Virus record (IMG/VR): IMGVR_UViG_3300017766_005733
Coordinates: 67,626-131,625 of that record
Reading direction: 5' to 3' (one strand)
Length of the DNA: 64,000 bases
DNA from: a virus
The position numbers and the translations under genes were made by a program. The notes beneath the pieces are model-generated. The model saw only the letters and a program-made list of their open reading frames with translations. It was not told where the DNA came from and ran no database searches. This document shows, in pieces, positions 15,475 to 20,980 of this stretch; position 1 is the stretch's first letter; each line of letters begins with the position of its first letter.

Positions 15475-17145
15475 ATGCTACAGCGCAACCCTCCCTCTTT
15501 TCATTGCCATCCCCAGAGCCTTGACTCGGGTTCAACCCCCGAGGCCATCATCAAGCGAGAGATGGAGTTGGGCACGGGGACCATTACCGTCACCGACCAC
15601 GGCTCCCTGTCCTGCTGCCGCAAGGTCTATGACCTCGCTCGCGGCAAGGGGCTGACGCCGATCCTCGGCATCGAGGGTTACTTCCGCGACGACAACTGCC
15701 CGATTCTGCGCGCCAAGGGCGTCGACCCCGCGAAGCACCTCAAATACTACCACATCACCATACACGCCCTCGACCAAGAGGCTTACCACAAGATCGTTTC
15801 CAAGACGTCGTTGGCTCGCACTGAGCGCCATGGCAGCGAGGTCAAGCCGCTGTTCACTTGGGCGGACTTGGAGGAGATCGGTGCCTGCAACGTCACCGTC
15901 GGCAGCGGCTGCCTCGTGGGTATGGTGCAGCGCCACCTGTTGGCGCATGGCGACTTGGCTACCGCCGAGGCCTACTATGCGCGCCTGCGATCGATCGTGC
16001 GCCCCGGCAACTTCTACGCCGAAGTCTTCCCGCACTCCTGTACCCACAACTGGGTGCAGGGCGTCTTCGTGACCTTTGCCGACGGCACCGAGGTCCGTTA
16101 CTACGACGAGAAGAACCTGCGCCTTGGCAGTGGCCTGCAGGTGAAGGCGGCGGAACTCGCCAAGGCCTTTGCCCACAAGGGCTGGAAGGGCGACACGCTG
16201 GTGGCGGTCATGGATCGCCGGGTGTGGCGCGACCTTGAGCCCAAGGCCATCGTCAAGGTGAAGCGCGTCGAGGCCTTCATCGAGAACGAGTGCCTGCCAT
16301 GGACGACCAACCCCAACGTCCAGCAGGCGTGCAACGAGATCATCCTTGGCTTCGCCGACAAGTACGGTGACCCCGTGGTCATCAGCGACGACAGCCACTA
16401 CGCGACGGCCGACGACAAGATCGTGCAGGACATCCGCCTGCAGCAGCAGGGCAACTGGCGCTTCTACGGCACCTACGCCCGCCAGTCGGCGGCCGATTCA
16501 TGGGCCTACTTCAAGGCCAACAACACCACGGAGGCTCAGTTTGAGGGCTGGGTGGAGAACAACGTCGCGTGGGGTCAGCGCTTCAAGGACTTCAAGCTGG
16601 TGGAGCCGCCGTCGCTGCCCACGAAGTTCTACCCCTCCGACACCCTCAACCACACCATCGACCTCGTTCGGCAGCAGGGGCGGATGCAGTGGAAGGACCA
16701 GAAGTACGTTGATCGGCTGCGGGCGGAGATCAACCTGCTGCACTACAACAAGACCATCGATCTGCTGCCCTACTTCTTTGTGGGGGCCGACGTTTGCAAC
16801 GCCTACTCGCAACAAGGATTTCTGACTGGGCCGGGCCGCGGATCGGCCGCCGGTCTCCTGTTGACGTACCTGCTGGGCATCACCCACGTCGACCCGCTGA
16901 AGTATGACCTGTCGATGGATCGCTTCCTGACCGTCGATCGCATCAAGTCGGGAAAGTTGCCTGACATTGACTTTGATTTTCCGTCTCGGGATATTCTCGT
17001 AGAAGAGCACGACGTGGATATGATAGAAATCGTCATGGAAGACGGATCCAAGAAGATCATCTCGCCCTCTCAGAAGATCAAAACCAGTCAAGGAATGATG
17101 ACAGCACAGGAAGCCTTCGATCGACAGGCTGAGGTGATCGAATGA
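15475..17145 (+). CDS. dnaE: DNA polymerase III alpha subunit, N-terminal fragment (PHP domain and first part of palm)
   Basis: HCH, TDHG, PILGIEGY, SDDSHY, GPGRGSAAG, LGITHVDP, LPDIDFDF; ends in a HINT-like tail. Confidence 0.93.
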   Translation: MLQRNPPSFHCHPQSLDSGSTPEAIIKREMELGTGTITVTDHGSLSCCRKVYDLARGKGLTPILGIEGYFRDDNCPILRAKGVDPAKHLKYYHITIHALDQEAYHKIVSKTSLARTERHGSEVKPLFTWADLEEIGACNVTVGSGCLVGMVQRHLLAHGDLATAEAYYARLRSIVRPGNFYAEVFPHSCTHNWVQGVFVTFADGTEVRYYDEKNLRLGSGLQVKAAELAKAFAHKGWKGDTLVAVMDRRVWRDLEPKAIVKVKRVEAFIENECLPWTTNPNVQQACNEIILGFADKYGDPVVISDDSHYATADDKIVQDIRLQQQGNWRFYGTYARQSAADSWAYFKANNTTEAQFEGWVENNVAWGQRFKDFKLVEPPSLPTKFYPSDTLNHTIDLVRQQGRMQWKDQKYVDRLRAEINLLHYNKTIDLLPYFFVGADVCNAYSQQGFLTGPGRGSAAGLLLTYLLGITHVDPLKYDLSMDRFLTVDRIKSGKLPDIDFDFPSRDILVEEHDVDMIEIVMEDGSKKIISPSQKIKTSQGMMTAQEAFDRQAEVIE

Positions 17146-17567
17146 TTTGTCAAAGATGCAACAAGGACGAGCGATACAAAGATGGCAAATGCAAGCCATG
17201 TGCTCGCGCAAGAGCCAGAGAAGACTACCATCAAAATGCCGAAAAACGGAAAAGACAGGCACAGGAATGGAAAGAGAATAACCGAGAAAGAGCCAGAGCC
17301 TCGGGTCGCAGGGGAGGACGAACTGATTGGCAGCCGGGTGAGCACGAAAGAGCAGAGGCCGCCCTAAAGACGGCAAACCGGTGCGAGGTCTGTGATAGCG
17401 TCGACCCTCGCCATAAACGTGGATGGAACGCCGACCACGATCACGCCACCGGGCTTTTCCGTGGCATCGTCTGCCATCCATGCAACATTGCCATCTCTCA
17501 TGTAGAGAAGTTTGACCTAGACCGCGGGCAGCAGGTCTGGTACTACCTTGCAAGGAAGAAACGATGA
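17142..17567 (+). mobile_element. Free-standing endonuclease VII-type (His-Me finger) homing endonuclease splitting dnaE
   Basis: CEVC...NADHDHATGLFRGIVCHPCN; ATGA overlaps at both ends; more A-rich than the flanking DNA. Confidence 0.88.
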
Positions 17568-20500
17568 AAATCACCTCAATCAACGCCGTCACGGTGAGAG
17601 CGGAACCTTGGCTCAAGCAGCGCTTCGGCGCCGACCACTACGCGCAGATCAGCGCCGACACGACCCTGAAGCTGCGGTCGTCGGTGAAGGACGTTGCGCG
17701 CGCCACCCACGGCTCAGTGCCGCCTGACGTCGAGGAACTGACCAAGCAGTTCCAGAATCCTCCTCAGGGCATCAGCGACAGCGACTTCGTCTTTGGCTAC
17801 ACGGCCAACGACGAACACGTCCCCGGCAGCATCGAGACCGACGCCGCCCTCAAGACCTACATCTCCCGATACCCCAAGGAATGGGAGACGGTGCAGCGGC
17901 TGCTGGGTATCGCGCGGTCCAAGACCCGTCACGCCTGCGGCTTCATCATCGCCAATCGCCCTGTCCATGAGTTCATCCCGTTGATGGACATCGGCGGCGT
18001 CACGGCCACGCAGTACACCTCTTCTGCCGTCGAGGCCGCCGGCGGGCTGAAGATGGACTTCCTTGTCGTCAACAGCCTTGGCGACATCAAGGATGCCCTG
18101 AACCTGATTCAGGAGGGGACGTTGCCCGGAGGCCGGGCCAGTGGCGACGAGGGTCTGCGGTATCCGGCGACGCTGGTGATCAACGGCCGCCTTGTGCCGC
18201 GCCATCGTCTTGTGCCCGACGGCAACGGCGGCTTCTACGACATTTGGGATCTGCCCGAGGATCAGGCGGTGTTTCGCGAGATCAGCGAGGGCAAGACCGA
18301 GACCGTCTTCCAGTTCAACACCCCCGGCGCCATCCAGTGGCTGCGGCACTTCAACCACTGGAAGGACGAGATGGCTGGACACAAGGCCATTGACTCCATT
18401 GAAGCCATGTCGGCCTTCACGGCCCTTGACCGCCCCGGACCCTTGGATGCCTACGTTGAGGGGCCCGATGGCCGCCAGCACAACATGCTCGTGGAGTACG
18501 CCCGCCGTGCCCGCGGCGAAGAAGCCTGTGGCAGCATCAATGCCCTGTCAGTCCTCTTTCCCGAGACCTATGGCGTCCTGACCTACCAAGAGCAGCTGCA
18601 GCGCGCGTATCGCGAGTTGACGGGCTGCAGCGGCTCAGAGGCCGAGGAGTTCCGCACCAACGTCGCGAAGAAGAAGATGGACAAGGTCCTGAAGGCCTAC
18701 CCGGCGTTCATTGAGCGTGCTTCCGCCAAGGTTGGCGGCGAGCAAGTCGCCAAGACCATCTGGGAAACCTTCGTTACATGGGGACAATACGGCTTCAACA
18801 AAACTATGGACCAAAGCACAATCTTGTCTACGGTTGACGGTGACCAGAAGCGCATCGTCGATTTCAAGGGCGGAGAGCATGTTTGGTGTGTTGATGATCA
18901 TGGGCAAAAAACCGCGACCGAAGTCGTGGCGTTGCATGATCATGGCGAACTGATGGGTTGGGAACTTGAGTTTGACGATGGCTACAAGGTAGTTGCGTCA
19001 TCTCATCATAAGTTCTTGACAGAACTTGGCCAGACACCCCTTCATGAAATCATTGATCGGGATTTGGAGGTGCTTGGTGGCGTATCAATGGAAGAATCGA
19101 GTGGTGGGCATTCCAATGGCGTGCGGCCAGAGGGTGCCGAAACGCCAGAGGGCGATGCACAAAAGGGACTGCGCGACTTGCGCGGCCGTGAAAGCGGAAA
19201 ACATTCGGCAGAGGATGATTGCGCACAACACTCGGCCGGAACAGAAGGCAGCGGCCTCGGAGGCCGCTCAGAGAACTTCGTCTCGGCGAGACATCCAGCT
19301 GCAGCGAGTGGCGCGAATGCATGCTTGGCAGCGAGAGCATCCAGAACAGATCGAGGCGATCTGGGAATCCGCCAGAAGAGCAGGCAAGAAATCGAAGGCG
19401 GAGGCATGGCTTCGATCAGAGGCGATCTTGAGTTGGCCGGATGCACAGATCCGCTGCGGGCTCAAGAAGAAGCAGGTGGACTTCGTGTCCCCAGACCACA
19501 AAATCTGGGTGGAAGTGGACGGATTCTTCCACTTTCACGAGGCATCGAAAACTCGGAAACAGTTGACGAAGATTCAGGAGAGGTACGCGATGCTGCGCGA
19601 CGAAGCGCTTCGTCGCGGCGATGTGACATTGATCCGGCTTTCCGGGCAATGCTTCCGTTCTTCCGACGGGAGGATGCATCGCGAATGGCTAGAGTGGCTT
19701 ACAGCGACGCTCCGCTCTCCTGTTCCCGGAGTCTGGTGCGCCGGCGCATTGTACGAGTCCGTGCAGTGGGCATCCGCCGGATGTACGATCTTGAAGTCGC
19801 CCACCCGAAACACAACTTTATGCTGTCCAACGGAGTCGTAACCAGCAATAGTCACTCGGTTTGCTACAGCCACATCGCCTACGCCTGCGCCTACCTCAAG
19901 CACCACTTCCCGCTGGAGTGGTGGTGCGCCGTCCTTGGCAATGCGTCAAAGAACGAGGTCGTCGACGACTTCTGGCGCCACTGCGGTCATCTCGTCAAGC
20001 TGCCGGACATCAACCGGTCGTCGCGCAAGTTCCGGATTGAAGGCGACCACATCCGCGCGCCCGTGGGCCTGATCGTGGGTGTTGGCGAGACGGCACAGCA
20101 GCAGCTACTGGCCCTCGCCCCCTTCGTTGACGTCCGCGACTTCTGCCAGAAGATCGAGGTCGATTGCGTTGCCCGCAAGACGCCGCTGATCGACAAGGCA
20201 ACGGGGAAACAAAAGACGACAAAGGACGGCCAGCTGCGATGGACGAAGGGCCGCAGCGCGCTGACGCGAGGCGTTGTGCATCTCCTCATTGCCGCCGGCG
20301 TCATGGACAGCCTCTTCCCCGCCGACTCCACGCTGTCGGAGAAGATCGCGGCCTACGAGCAGGCGTCGGCTGAGGCCAAGGGCGAAAAGAAGATCCAGCC
20401 GGTGCCGCCCAAGTACCTCGTCAACAGCCGCGTCCTCAACTTCCAGCTGCGCAAGAAGGTGCTGCCCATCTACAGCGAGGCCCTGTATCCGCTGCTGCTG

Positions 20501-20980
20501 GAGGCCGACGAAGAACAATGGCCGCGGAAGGCGCTGACTCATGCCCGTCAGCCCATCTTCCGCCACATGGCCGACGACATCCCCGTCGTCAGCCATCGCC
20601 GTCTGCAGGCGCTGGAAACCATCACGCCGTGGCCCGCGGACATGAAGATCAAGGTGGCGGTGCCGTGTGTCGTCAAAGGCCGCCGCGTCTTCTCTTACGC
20701 CAAGGGCGAGAAGGAGGCCTGCGAGTTGGACCTTGACTGCGAGGGCGGTGGCGCGGTAAACGTCGTGAAGTGGCCCGACCGGAAGACGGGTAAGATTCCG
20801 GCGTGGTACAGGAGCGACATCGCTGGTGCTATTGGCCTTGCTATCTTTGAAAAATACACCGAGCGCCGGCCCTTTGGCCTCGTCGACCTGATTGTCTTCC
20901 ACCAACCAGCAACAACGGAAACCGAGAATGAGCAAGAAGCCCAACAAGATGCCGCAGAACGAACCCCAGACGCCGCCTGA
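17564..20980 (+). CDS. dnaE: DNA polymerase III alpha subunit, C-terminal fragment, containing an intein
   Basis: FGADHYAQI, RHACGFII, GGLKMDFL, TVFQF, RPGP, TYGVLTYQEQ, YGFNK^SHSVCY, YLKHHFPLEW, LPDINRS. Confidence 0.93.
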   Translation: MKITSINAVTVRAEPWLKQRFGADHYAQISADTTLKLRSSVKDVARATHGSVPPDVEELTKQFQNPPQGISDSDFVFGYTANDEHVPGSIETDAALKTYISRYPKEWETVQRLLGIARSKTRHACGFIIANRPVHEFIPLMDIGGVTATQYTSSAVEAAGGLKMDFLVVNSLGDIKDALNLIQEGTLPGGRASGDEGLRYPATLVINGRLVPRHRLVPDGNGGFYDIWDLPEDQAVFREISEGKTETVFQFNTPGAIQWLRHFNHWKDEMAGHKAIDSIEAMSAFTALDRPGPLDAYVEGPDGRQHNMLVEYARRARGEEACGSINALSVLFPETYGVLTYQEQLQRAYRELTGCSGSEAEEFRTNVAKKKMDKVLKAYPAFIERASAKVGGEQVAKTIWETFVTWGQYGFNKTMDQSTILSTVDGDQKRIVDFKGGEHVWCVDDHGQKTATEVVALHDHGELMGWELEFDDGYKVVASSHHKFLTELGQTPLHEIIDRDLEVLGGVSMEESSGGHSNGVRPEGAETPEGDAQKGLRDLRGRESGKHSAEDDCAQHSAGTEGSGLGGRSENFVSARHPAAASGANACLAARASRTDRGDLGIRQKSRQEIEGGGMASIRGDLELAGCTDPLRAQEEAGGLRVPRPQNLGGSGRILPLSRGIENSETVDEDSGEVRDAARRSASSRRCDIDPAFRAMLPFFRREDASRMARVAYSDAPLSCSRSLVRRRIVRVRAVGIRRMYDLEVAHPKHNFMLSNGVVTSNSHSVCYSHIAYACAYLKHHFPLEWWCAVLGNASKNEVVDDFWRHCGHLVKLPDINRSSRKFRIEGDHIRAPVGLIVGVGETAQQQLLALAPFVDVRDFCQKIEVDCVARKTPLIDKATGKQKTTKDGQLRWTKGRSALTRGVVHLLIAAGVMDSLFPADSTLSEKIAAYEQASAEAKGEKKIQPVPPKYLVNSRVLNFQLRKKVLPIYSEALYPLLLEADEEQWPRKALTHARQPIFRHMADDIPVVSHRRLQALETITPWPADMKIKVAVPCVVKGRRVFSYAKGEKEACELDLDCEGGGAVNVVKWPDRKTGKIPAWYRSDIAGAIGLAIFEKYTERRPFGLVDLIVFHQPATTETENEQEAQQDAAERTPDAA
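18803..19849 (+). mobile_element. Intein (349 aa) at the YGFNK^SHS site, starting with Thr
   Basis: Block A TMDQSTILSTVDG; block B ASSHHKFLT; block F MYDLEVAHPKHNFM; block G NGVVTSN|S. Removing it restores YGFNKSHSVCY. Confidence 0.92.
19077..19841 (+). CDS. Vsr/DUF559-like homing endonuclease nested in the +1 frame inside the intein
   Basis: GGAGG (19066-19070), 6 nt, GTG 19077; SKAE...VDFVSPDHKIWVEVDGFFH...LRRGDVTLIRL; basic helical N-terminal region. Confidence 0.82.
   Translation: MAYQWKNRVVGIPMACGQRVPKRQRAMHKRDCATCAAVKAENIRQRMIAHNTRPEQKAAASEAAQRTSSRRDIQLQRVARMHAWQREHPEQIEAIWESARRAGKKSKAEAWLRSEAILSWPDAQIRCGLKKKQVDFVSPDHKIWVEVDGFFHFHEASKTRKQLTKIQERYAMLRDEALRRGDVTLIRLSGQCFRSSDGRMHREWLEWLTATLRSPVPGVWCAGALYESVQWASAGCTILKSPTRNTTLCCPTES

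What the first reader, a model, noticed from the sequence alone, without database searches (positions are those of the whole stretch)
18803..19849. Dual-coding intein: homing endonuclease overprinted in the +1 frame inside a contiguous DnaE intein
Seen: the dnaE frame is open from intein block A (18803) to TSN|S (19849), but its middle (about 215 aa, 19080-19730) reads as Arg/Ser/Gly/Ala-rich text with no nuclease motif. The +1 frame over the same DNA (GTG 19077 to TAA 19841, 254 aa) has GGAGG 6 nt upstream and encodes a Vsr/DUF559-like nuclease (VDF...VEVDGFFH...GDVTLIRL). Established: full-length inteins normally carry the nuclease in frame, while fractured genes place a free-standing nuclease gene between two split-intein halves. 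Inference: this is a third architecture, in which the nuclease is translated independently from inside the polymerase mRNA and the intein tolerates the off-frame product as a linker that is spliced out. I do not know of a description of this arrangement but could not search the literature. Caveat: QERY stands where Vsr-like enzymes usually have RD, so the nuclease may be decaying.
Basis: partly seen in the sequence, partly recalled or inferred. Interest (0 to 1): 0.92.

Follow-up and report, generated by a model that had tools for sequence, protein, structure and literature searches.

The report
Polymerase intein with overprinted nuclease gene
A self-splicing protein insert (intein) in a phage DNA-polymerase gene carries its DNA-cutting "homing" enzyme as a separate gene one base out of register on the same DNA; the layout is real and kept by selection in many related phages, but the general idea was published in 2025-26.

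Summary
A 349-codon intein (18803-19849, YGFNK|T...TSN|SHS) sits in the second piece of a phage dnaE. Its frame is open throughout. The +1 frame holds a 254-codon ORF (GTG 19077 to TAA 19841) with GGAGG 6 nt upstream.

The +1 protein folds confidently (pLDDT 90) as a Vsr-like/EDxHD homing nuclease. The host-frame reading of the same DNA is about 170 residues of predicted disorder between two well-folded intein halves.

This is neither an error nor chance. Contigs of 4 runs show no indel. In 16 of 17 related loci the host frame has no stop across the nuclease gene, although synonymous shuffles predict 6-18. dN/dS is 0.23 in the nuclease frame and 1.7 in the host frame.

One relative (L007) is a true fractured gene. 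A sister nuclease clade sits behind intein N-halves whose host frame is closed.

The window's own nuclease has Tyr where 26 of 27 aligned sequences have the presumed catalytic Asp, so it is probably impaired.

Out-of-frame intein nucleases were already described (Gosselin et al. 2025 preprint; a 2026 dnaX preprint). This scan has also met such inteins on other DNA. I rate this a new variant, not a new architecture.

The parts
15475..17145 (+). dnaE piece 1 (PHP domain and first part of the pol III alpha domain)
   Evidence: Pfam PHP E 3.3e-19 and DNA_pol3_alpha profile positions 19-111 of 260. Residues 5-509 match Mx1 DnaE 5-517 at 52% identity.
17142..17567 (+). free-standing endonuclease VII-like gene that splits dnaE, with no intein; it has 4-nt overlaps with both neighbours
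   Evidence: Pfam Endonuclease_7 E 1.6e-11. phrog_2633 'endonuclease VII' E 9e-14.
17564..20980 (+). dnaE piece 2 (rest of the pol III alpha domain, fingers, HhH) carrying the intein
   Evidence: Pfam DNA_pol3_alpha profile 119-259, finger and HHH_6 domains. Residues 16-414 and 761-1136 match Mx1 DnaE 523-909 and 907-1289.
18803..19849 (+). contiguous intein, 349 codons: YGFNK|T1 ... T347-S348-N349|SHS
   Evidence: Boundaries come from the alignment with 13 homologues. Mx1 has an uninterrupted YGFNR-SHS. Pfam Intein_splicing E 1.1e-5, 25.7 bits, below the cut-off of 35.8.
18803..19090 (+). intein N-terminal splicing domain (residues 1-96; blocks A and B, S66..H69-K-F-L)
   Evidence: AF2 pLDDT above 90. 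Foldseek match to the NpuDnaE intein 4kl5, E 4.7e-7. H69, K70, F71 and L72 are invariant.
19094..19603 (+). host-frame 'linker' (intein residues 98-267): the off-frame reading of the nuclease gene, predicted disordered
   Evidence: pLDDT below 50 and no secondary structure. Host-frame amino-acid identity 0.245 and dN/dS 1.7 over the core columns, which are nuclease residues 100-212. There are 0 stops where 8.2 are expected.
19730..19849 (+). intein C-terminal splicing domain (residues 310-349; blocks F and G, YDLEV...HNF...TSN)
   Evidence: pLDDT above 90. D329, H337, N338, F339, T347, S348 and N349 are invariant in 14 of 14 sequences.
19066..19070 (+). GGAGG Shine-Dalgarno-like motif, encoded by the intein codons for L-E-V
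   Evidence: It lies 6 nt before GTG 19077. GGAG or GAGG occurs at -16..-4 in 12 of 15 homologous starts, against a background of 0.109. I chose the starts by eye, partly with this motif in view.
19077..19841 (+). nuclease gene in the +1 frame (254 codons plus TAA): Vsr-like/EDxHD homing endonuclease
   Evidence: 16 homologues found; 324 representatives at E <= 0.001. AF2 pLDDT 90.2. VIA-align: Vsr 1cw0 Z 9.8 and I-Bth0305I 3r3p Z 8.1. dN/dS 0.23.
19122..19181 (+). Cys-x-His-x-Cys-x2-Cys zinc-finger-like module of the nuclease (residues 16-35), a presumed DNA-binding unit
   Evidence: The motif is present 0 to 3 times in the 15 relatives examined. The model has a beta-hairpin plus a helix at residues 12-31.
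19386..19760 (+). nuclease catalytic core (about residues 104-228; E109, D135, E146, D148, H152, R169, Y170)
   Evidence: Structural matches span model residues 104-216/243. The invariant columns are listed.
19584..19586 (+). TAC = Tyr170, where the family has Asp (the presumed equivalent of Vsr Asp97)
   Evidence: D in 26 of 27 aligned sequences; only the window has Y. P0003, 99% identical, has D. One run's contig covering this place (X3) shows no difference from the window.
19730..19841 (+). stretch where the nuclease tail and the intein C-terminal domain are both conserved
   Evidence: The tail SPxPGVWCxGxLYESVPW... is shared by the homologues. Amino-acid identity is 0.558 in the nuclease frame and 0.591 in the host frame over 26 columns.

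Best explanation
The window comes from an uncultivated phage record of 131,625 bases. Its closest named DNA match in the phage collection is Myxococcus phage Mx1.

The phage's dnaE carries a contiguous class-1-type intein at the YGFNK|SHS site. A free-standing Vsr-like/EDxHD homing-endonuclease gene lies in the place where inteins usually hold their nuclease domain. It lies one base out of register with the intein and has its own Shine-Dalgarno site and GTG start.

Ribosomes that translate dnaE read this gene in the wrong frame. That gives about 170-200 disordered residues. Selection keeps this reading free of stop codons but does not otherwise constrain it. The two intein halves then fold together and splice the whole insert out, restoring DnaE.

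Other ribosomes start at GTG 19077 and make the nuclease. In the family at large the nuclease would cut intein-less dnaE alleles and drive homing.

In this particular genome the nuclease has Tyr at the position of a presumed catalytic Asp, so it is probably weakened or dead while the intein persists.

Shown here: both frames are open and conserved, selection differs by frame, and the folds are as stated. Inferred: internal initiation, cis-splicing, cleavage of the empty site, and the effect of D170Y.
For: (1) Conservation of the layout. The host frame has 0 stops across the nuclease ORF in the window and in 16 of 17 related loci, while the third frame has 8-24 stops. Synonymous shuffles expect 5.9-17.9 host-frame stops, and 0 of 5000 shuffles were open in each case. 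A second scan added 5 more such loci.

(2) Selection by frame in the nuclease core. Nucleotide differences at nuclease codon positions 1, 2 and 3 are 0.434, 0.338 and 0.614. Amino-acid identity is 0.484 in the nuclease frame and 0.245 in the host frame. Median dN/dS is 0.23 in the nuclease frame (33 of 105 pairs usable) and 1.70 in the host frame (91 of 105).

(3) Independent start. An SD-like motif plus GTG or ATG lies at the homologous place in 12 of 15 loci, against a background of 0.109. In L006 and L007 a +1-frame stop lies 12 and 6 nt before the start codon, which leaves almost no room for a frameshift fusion. The SD is unpaired in the predicted RNA fold.

(4) Folds. The nuclease model has pLDDT 90.2 and matches Vsr 1cw0 (Z 9.8, 131 residues aligned) and I-Bth0305I 3r3p (Z 8.1). 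The host-frame model has intein residues 1-96 and 310-349 at pLDDT above 90 and residues 98-267 below 50. It matches mini-inteins such as 4kl5, E 4.7e-7.

(5) Splicing residues are kept. Position 1 is S, T or C in 14 of 14 sequences. The block B His, block F Asp and HNF, and the terminal TSN|S are invariant.

(6) An empty site exists in Mx1 DnaE.

(7) Contigs of 4 runs show no indels.

(8) D170Y: D in 26 of 27 sequences. Asp97 of Vsr is named a catalytic-site residue, and I-Bth0305I Asp222 superimposes on it (PMC2677866 and PMC3239194, passages read).
Against: - There is no RNA, ribosome-profiling or peptide evidence for translation from GTG 19077, and no splicing assay.
- The window's intein scores below Pfam's cut-off (25.7 against 35.8 bits). 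It has Ser, not His, before the terminal Asn, and Thr at position 1.
- Sequence-only nuclease hits are weak: DUF559 E 0.034, no PDB sequence hit to a nuclease, and Foldseek Vsr E 0.05.
- I picked the start codons by eye, partly with the SD in mind, so the P value is inflated.
- dS is saturated in most nuclease-frame pairs (72 of 105 unusable), and dN/dS in overlapping frames is biased.
- I matched D170 to Vsr Asp97 by motif spacing, not by a residue-level structural alignment.
- A relative (P0094) has the nuclease fused in frame to the N-terminal intein half, so other ways of expressing the nuclease exist in the wider family.
Confidence: 0.78

Rival explanations
1. Relic reading: in this genome the +1 ORF is a dead nuclease gene. 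Only the stop-free host frame matters, so the element is in effect a mini-intein with a long junk linker and no longer homes.
For: Tyr replaces the Asp that 26 of 27 family members keep. Passages of PMC2677866 and PMC3239194 name the corresponding Vsr and I-Bth0305I residue as catalytic. The Tyr codon also appears in a second run's contig (X3), which shows no difference from the window there.
Against: The rest of the ORF is intact: 254 codons with no stop and all other invariant residues present. A 99% identical relative (P0003) has Asp, so any loss is a single recent change. Across the family the +1 frame is under purifying selection. This rival concerns only the present copy and is compatible with the main explanation.
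Confidence: 0.5
2. Frameshift expression: the nuclease is made by ribosomes that slip +1 from the dnaE frame. The product would be a DnaE-N/intein-N/nuclease fusion, or, with a second slip, a canonical in-frame intein. There would be no internal initiation.
For: A GGAGG lies 2 nt before a CTT codon of the host frame. From recall, this loosely resembles the prfB +1 shift site. The relative P0094 carries the nuclease in frame with the N-terminal intein half.
Against: No slow or stop codon follows the CTT. A start codon lies at the homologous place in all 15 loci examined. In L006 and L007 a +1-frame stop lies 12 and 6 nt upstream of it. The fractured relative L007 must start its nuclease independently, because the upstream ORF ends there. 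No slippery motif is shared between loci (by eye).
Confidence: 0.05
3. Functionally split intein: although the frame is open, DnaE is assembled by trans-splicing. One partner would be the long N-terminal product. The other would be a C-terminal piece started internally, for example at ATG 19685.
For: The in-frame ATG 19685 lies at the position homologous to the start of the C-terminal intein ORF in the fractured relative L007. The sister nuclease clade lies in genes whose host frame is closed.
Against: If trans-splicing sufficed, nothing would keep 170-250 off-frame codons free of stops in the window and 21 loci. That position is Met in only 3 of 14 homologues. The nearest SD-like motif is 11 nt away.
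Confidence: 0.07
4. Artefact: two compensating sequencing or assembly indels moved an ordinary in-frame nuclease domain out of frame.
For: None was found.
Against: Contigs of 4 runs from 4 studies show no indels. The same frame relation holds in 21 diverged loci from other samples.
Confidence: 0.01

Closest known systems
Non-canonical actinobacteriophage inteins with the homing endonuclease in a separate frame or on the other strand (Gosselin, Arsenault & Gogarten, bioRxiv 10.1101/2025.01.02.630785; passages read)
   Same: A contiguous intein whose host frame runs without stops through a nuclease ORF read in another frame. The in-frame middle has no recognisable structure. The origin proposed is invasion of an intein by a free-standing nuclease gene.
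   Different: Their same-strand case is an endonuclease VII-like gene in frame 3. Their Vsr-like cases are antisense. Their hosts are DNA polymerase, minor capsid, terminase and thymidylate synthase of actinophages; 'DnaE' occurs 0 times in the text. Here a Vsr-like/EDxHD gene lies on the sense strand in the +1 frame, in DnaE and two other host genes of environmental phages. Their supplementary tables could not be opened.
Cyanobacterial dnaX intein with an out-of-frame homing endonuclease (bioRxiv 10.64898/2026.09.14.751524; only the title and the start of the abstract seen; not held for reading)
   Same: By its title, an intein that encodes its homing endonuclease out of frame.
   Different: The host gene is dnaX and the organisms are cyanobacteria. 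The nuclease family and frame are unknown to me because the text could not be read.
Fractured genes: split inteins with a free-standing Vsr-like homing endonuclease gene between the halves (Dassa et al. 2009, PMC2677866; passages read)
   Same: The same nuclease type, Vsr-like and later named EDxHD. DnaE is among the hosts. The nuclease 3' end overlaps the downstream intein part; they report 6-69 bp. The relative L007 has exactly this arrangement.
   Different: In the window the host frame is not broken. The intein is contiguous and the nuclease gene is overprinted, not intercalated.
I-Bth0305I, prototype of the EDxHD homing endonucleases (Taylor et al. 2011, PMC3239194; passages read; PDB 3r3p)
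   Same: A Vsr-like catalytic fold (Z 8.1, 92 residues), conserved E/D/H/D residues, and a bipartite build with an N-terminal DNA-binding region.
   Different: I-Bth0305I lies in a group I intron of recA and has NUMOD motifs. Here the N-terminal part has Cys/His zinc-finger-like modules and helical repeats. No sequence-level match was found.

Membership tests
Intein (HINT splicing domain, class 1) | Nucleophile (Cys/Ser/Thr) as first residue, directly after conserved extein sequence | tested here: met
   The window has T1 after YGFNK. Position 1 is S in 9, T in 3 and C in 2 of 14 sequences. From recall, Thr is an unusual first residue.
Intein (HINT splicing domain, class 1) | Block B Thr/Ser-x-x-His | tested here: met
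   S66-S-H-H69. H69-K-F-L is invariant in 14 of 14 sequences.
Intein (HINT splicing domain, class 1) | C-terminal Asn followed by Ser/Thr/Cys at +1 | tested here: met
   T347-S348-N349 followed by S is invariant in 14 of 14 sequences.
Intein (HINT splicing domain, class 1) | Penultimate His | tested here: not met
   Ser348 in all 14 sequences. From recall, some active inteins lack this His, so it is not strictly defining.
Intein (HINT splicing domain, class 1) | HINT fold | tested here: met
   Foldseek matches to NpuDnaE 4kl5 (E 4.7e-7), Ssp DnaB 6frg and Ssp DnaE 1zd7. 42 matches at E <= 0.001.
Intein (HINT splicing domain, class 1) | Pfam Intein_splicing above the gathering score | tested here: inconclusive
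   The window scores 25.7 bits against a cut-off of 35.8. The relatives L004 (40.4) and L014 (36.9) pass.
Intein (HINT splicing domain, class 1) | Insert absent from an orthologue at the same site | tested here: met
   Mx1 DnaE reads QYGFNRSHSICYS without an insert.
Intein (HINT splicing domain, class 1) | Protein splicing | not testable with these tools
   This needs expression of the precursor.
EDxHD / Vsr-like homing endonuclease | Vsr-like nuclease fold | tested here: met
   1cw0 Z 9.8 (rmsd 4.1, 131 residues aligned) and 3r3p Z 8.1 (rmsd 2.9, 92 aligned) are the two top rows of 48,161 chains. Foldseek alone is weak (1vsr E 0.05).
EDxHD / Vsr-like homing endonuclease | Conserved Glu, Asp, His, Asp active-site residues | tested here: not met
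   The family keeps E109 (26 of 27), D135, E146, D148 and H152 (27 of 27) and D170 (26 of 27). The window itself has Y170. I matched these to the Vsr residues by spacing, which is an inference.
EDxHD / Vsr-like homing endonuclease | Sequence-profile match (Pfam Vsr/DUF559) | tested here: inconclusive
   DUF559 E 0.034, 14.4 bits against a cut-off of 20.6. phrog_559 E 1.2e-5.
EDxHD / Vsr-like homing endonuclease | Site-specific cleavage of the empty allele | not testable with these tools
   This needs a biochemical assay.
Intein with out-of-frame, same-strand homing endonuclease (2025-26 preprints) | Complete nuclease ORF in another frame, inside a contiguous intein whose own frame has no stop | tested here: met
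Intein with out-of-frame, same-strand homing endonuclease (2025-26 preprints) | Homology to the published examples (endonuclease VII-like nuclease) | tested here: not met
   The nuclease here is Vsr-like. It gave no Endonuclease_7 hit.
Fractured gene with split intein (Dassa 2009) | Host gene broken into two ORFs, each with an intein half | tested here: not met
   The host frame is open through the window's intein. The feature is met in the relative L007.

The most novel reading that the evidence does not exclude
The overprinted state is not a short-lived accident. It is a stable, selected way of carrying a homing nuclease, and it interconverts with fractured genes.

One deep nuclease clade (identities down to about 34%) keeps 170-250 off-frame codons free of stops in at least three different host genes. 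One member (L007) has gone over to a split intein. The sister clade sits in genes whose host frame is closed, and one of its members (L036) is overprinted.

If this is right, these loci form a natural series that shows how naturally split inteins arise. They would also show that an intein tolerates any long disordered insert so long as it has no stop codon.
Probability: 0.5. Interest if true: 0.65.

Novelty: new variant of a known kind. Interest (0 to 1): 0.55.

Why it matters
- **Annotation.** Gene callers either report the polymerase with an unexplained 200-residue low-complexity insert or call the nuclease as a hypothetical protein overlapping it. No Pfam domain is recorded for any of the 16 database homologues, and where a source names them (4 of 16) the name is 'hypothetical protein'.
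- **Dual coding.** This is a clean natural case. One frame is under ordinary purifying selection. The other is selected only against stop codons. That is useful for calibrating overlapping-gene detectors.
- **Intein evolution.** The same nuclease clade occurs overprinted in contiguous inteins, between split-intein halves (L007), and fused in frame to the N-terminal half (P0094). This bears on the 'nuclease invades a mini-intein' model of Dassa 2009 and Gosselin 2025.
- **Protein engineering.** An intein family that appears to splice across about 170-250 disordered residues, with a Ser/Thr/Cys first residue and Ser at +1, may be of practical interest.

Tried and rejected
- I used the search for related loci instead.
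- **Sequence-only searches were weak.** tblastn of the nuclease against 50,697 phage records found no match. A profile search against PDB sequences gave no nuclease; the best hit was a dehydrogenase at E 0.0056, which I take as spurious.
- **No regulatory signal found.** There is no significant RNA structure around the nuclease start (z 0.65). There is no + strand promoter-like site in 18500-20100.
- **No RNA holder listed.** The look-up of sequencing runs listed no RNA run, so nothing can be said on expression. Only contigs, not raw reads, could be laid.
- **C-terminal intein half not found in the closed-frame loci.** My pattern for it matched 0 of 18 closed-frame loci. Their 'fractured' label therefore rests on the closed host frame and an intein block-B-like motif upstream (18 of 18). 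Only L007 was read in full.
- **Part of the second scan was left unexamined.** Of the 80 loci I analysed 27, the stronger and longer matches. 53 were not examined.
- **Rows dropped.** For the alignment and dN/dS work I dropped the near-duplicates L005, L010 and L013; they were kept in the stop counts and. L022 and L032 were dropped.
- **Host genes of relatives remain unclear.** L009 gave only a weak sigma-factor hit (E 0.00099). L008 and L014 gave nothing convincing.
- **Literature searches for this family.** 'intein'+'homing endonuclease'+'overlapping reading frame' returned 2 papers. 'intein'+'different reading frame'+'endonuclease' returned 2. 'intein'/'actinobacteriophage'/'out-of-frame'/'homing endonuclease' returned 19. 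'intein'+'EDxHD' returned 15. 'intein'+'overprint' returned 1. None of the listings showed a sense-strand +1 Vsr-like nuclease in a DnaE intein. The dnaX preprint could not be read and supplements are closed, so a prior report cannot be excluded.
- **Not used.** Complex prediction was not used because no binding claim is made.
Full report
**What is there.** The window is the last 64 kb of a 131,625-base virus record. Its dnaE region has its best named DNA match, about 70% identity, in Myxococcus phage Mx1.

dnaE is in pieces.
- ORF 15475..17145 holds the PHP domain and the first part of the pol III alpha domain.
- ORF 17142..17567 is an endonuclease VII-like gene.
- ORF 17564..20980 holds the rest of the polymerase.

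In Mx1 the gene is one CDS of 1289 codons. It reads ...QYGFNRSHSICYS... without interruption.

In the window 349 codons lie between YGFNK and SHS (18803..19849). They start with Thr and end with Thr-Ser-Asn. The polymerase frame is open throughout.

The +1 frame is open from 19020 to TAA 19839-19841. It has GTG at 19077, preceded at 6 nt by GGAGG.

**Not an error.** Contigs of four public runs lay on 18700-19950 with 0 to 12 substitutions per run and no inserted or missing letter. One of the runs may be the source. These are contigs, not reads.

**The +1 ORF is a real gene.**
- A word-indexed search found 16 homologues at 37-99% identity.
- A full HMMER scan with a 27-sequence profile found 324 representatives at E <= 0.001, 184 at 1e-10 and 43 at 1e-30.
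- AlphaFold2 with that alignment gave pLDDT 90.2.
- The two best of 48,161 chains by VIA-align are E. coli Vsr with DNA (1cw0: Z 9.8, rmsd 4.1, 131 residues) and the catalytic domain of the homing endonuclease I-Bth0305I (3r3p: Z 8.1, rmsd 2.9, 92 residues).
- Foldseek also ranks Vsr first, but weakly (E 0.05).
- Sequence profiles are marginal: DUF559 E 0.034 and phrog_559 E 1.2e-5. There is no PDB sequence hit to a nuclease.
- The invariant residues E109, D135, E146, D148, H152 and R169-D170 have the spacing of the EDxHD motif. D135 to H152 is 17 residues, the same as Asp196 to His213 in I-Bth0305I, per passages of PMC3239194. This correspondence is my inference.
- The N-terminal half is helical, with a Cys/His zinc-finger-like module. 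That module is repeated 0 to 3 times in relatives.

**The host-frame reading.** With a 14-sequence alignment, AlphaFold2 folds intein residues 1-96 and 310-349 at pLDDT above 90. Residues 98-267 stay below 50 with no secondary structure. The model matches mini-inteins: NpuDnaE 4kl5 at E 4.7e-7, with 42 matches at E <= 0.001.

The splicing residues are kept in all 14 sequences. These are S/T/C at position 1, the block B His, the block F Asp and HNF, and the terminal TSN followed by Ser. The penultimate residue is Ser, not His.

**The layout is conserved and selected.** Scans with the nuclease alignment returned 16 viral loci and one contig of a Myxococcales metagenome bin.
- In 16 of these 17 loci the frame one base behind the nuclease frame runs open through the whole nuclease gene, as part of an ORF of 757-1830 codons. 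The third frame has 10-24 stops.
- Three pairs are near-duplicates, which leaves 13 distinct loci plus the window.
- Synonymous-codon shuffles predict 5.9-17.9 host-frame stops. None of 5000 shuffles per locus was open.
- In the nuclease core the third codon position of the nuclease frame varies most (0.434, 0.338, 0.614 for positions 1, 2, 3).
- Amino-acid identity there is 0.484 in the nuclease frame against 0.245 in the host frame.
- Median dN/dS is 0.23 in the nuclease frame against 1.70 in the host frame. Only 33 of 105 pairs were usable in the nuclease frame because of saturation.

So the host frame is selected only to stay open.

Over the last about 26 aligned codons both frames are about equally conserved (0.558 and 0.591). 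Here the nuclease tail overlaps the C-terminal splicing domain.

**Independent start.** At the homologous place, just after the N-terminal splicing domain, every locus has a GTG or ATG. GGAG or GAGG lies at -16..-4 in 12 of 15 loci, against 0.109 elsewhere. I chose the starts by eye, so this figure is generous. The SD is written in the intein codons for (L/M/G)-E-V.

In L006 and L007 a +1-frame stop lies 12 and 6 nt before the start. This argues against a frameshift fusion. I found no + strand promoter-like site and no unusual RNA structure. The nuclease is therefore presumably translated from the dnaE message.

**Host genes.** The intein-plus-nuclease unit sits at YGFN(K/R/Q)|SH in DnaE in 9 distinct loci and the window. 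It sits in a gene of about 400 codons with a weak sigma-factor hit in L004/5 and L009/10. It sits in a large protein of unknown family in L008/13, L011 and L014. One contig carries two copies in different genes, L001 and L008.

**Relation to fractured genes.** L007 is the one exception, with 30 host-frame stops where 28 are expected.
- Its dnaE-N plus intein-N ORF ends at 860.
- Its nuclease ORF runs 857-1726.
- A new ORF starts at ATG 1573 with the C-terminal intein part and the rest of DnaE.

This is the arrangement of Dassa et al. 2009 (PMC2677866).

A second scan with more distant nucleases gave 80 loci, of which I analysed 27.
- 20 have a closed host frame, with 18-53 stops.
- 7 have an open host frame. 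Five of these are new (L036, L043-L046) and two are re-finds.
- All 18 non-duplicate closed loci have an intein block-B-like motif just upstream in another frame. My pattern did not find their C-terminal halves.

A maximum-likelihood tree of 38 nucleases splits with 100/100 support into two clades. One has 18 overprinted members plus L007. The other has 18 closed-frame members plus L036, which sits on a long branch. Starred branches force at least two changes of state.

A database relative, P0094, has the nuclease fused in frame to DnaE-N plus intein-N.

**This copy.** Residue 170 is Tyr (TAC 19584-19586), where 26 of 27 aligned sequences have Asp. P0003, 99% identical, has Asp. One other run's contig covers this place without a difference (X3).

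Passages of PMC2677866 name Vsr Asp51, His69 and Asp97 as the conserved catalytic-site residues. I therefore expect the window's nuclease to be impaired, at roughly even odds.

**Comparison with what is known.** Gosselin, Arsenault and Gogarten (bioRxiv 10.1101/2025.01.02.630785, passages read) describe actinophage inteins with three layouts: an endonuclease VII-like gene in frame 3, antisense LAGLIDADG genes, and antisense Vsr-like genes. They report an unstructured in-frame middle and propose invasion of inteins by free-standing nuclease genes.

A 2026 preprint is titled 'The Cyanobacterial dnaX Intein Encodes an Out-of-Frame Homing Endonuclease...'. I saw only its listing. A 2025 paper (PMC11855218, listing only) reports a hidden out-of-frame HNH gene in a phage methylase insertion.

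Earlier notes of this scan report similar overprinted inteins on other DNA. Two of them concern a sigma-factor intein that shares a few words with this nuclease.

The architecture is therefore known. What my five searches did not find in print is a sense-strand, +1-frame Vsr-like/EDxHD nuclease in a contiguous DnaE intein, or its side-by-side occurrence with the fractured form. Supplements and the dnaX text were not available to me.

**Verdict.** The mechanism is well supported by comparative evidence but untested experimentally. It is a new variant of a known kind. Interest 0.55.

Noticed in passing
window 15475-17567: dnaE is also broken upstream by a free-standing endonuclease VII-like gene (17142..17567) with 4-nt overlaps on both sides and no intein. 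The upstream piece ends with 47 residues, and the downstream piece begins with 15 residues, that have no counterpart in Mx1 DnaE. This resembles the intein-less fractured genes that Dassa 2009 mentions (SbcD-like, Aeh1 nrdA).
   Followed up: partly
window 19685-19687: An in-frame ATG of the host frame lies at the position homologous to the start of the C-terminal intein ORF in the fractured relative L007. An SD-like GGGAGGA lies 11 nt upstream. That position is Met in only 3 of 14 homologues.
   Followed up: partly
P0094 (database protein, 779 aa): This DnaE fragment has an ordinary mini-intein upstream. At the YGFNR|T site it has a second intein N-half that runs in frame into the Vsr-like nuclease and then stops. 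This is a third way of arranging the same parts. Its DNA could not be fetched.
   Followed up: no
L001 and L008 (same viral contig): One 39,854-base contig carries two members of this intein-plus-nuclease family. One is in DnaE and one is in a large protein of unknown family.
   Followed up: partly
L036:3345-4310: This is an overprinted member (0 host-frame stops, host ORF of 1223 codons) that falls inside the otherwise closed-frame nuclease clade, on a long branch. It may be an independent origin or a misplacement.
   Followed up: partly
nuclease ORFs of the window and L001-L017: The number of Cys-x-His-x-Cys-x2-Cys modules at the nuclease N-terminus varies from 0 to 3 between relatives, and W-R-x-x-N-P-E helical repeats also vary in number. 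This suggests a modular DNA-recognition array that differs with the target gene.
   Followed up: no
window 18700-19950 against runs X2 and X4: A closely related strain in other samples differs by 10-12 substitutions and no indel over 1251 bases. The differences include G>A at 19807, which matches the R-to-Q difference seen in P0003.
   Followed up: partly
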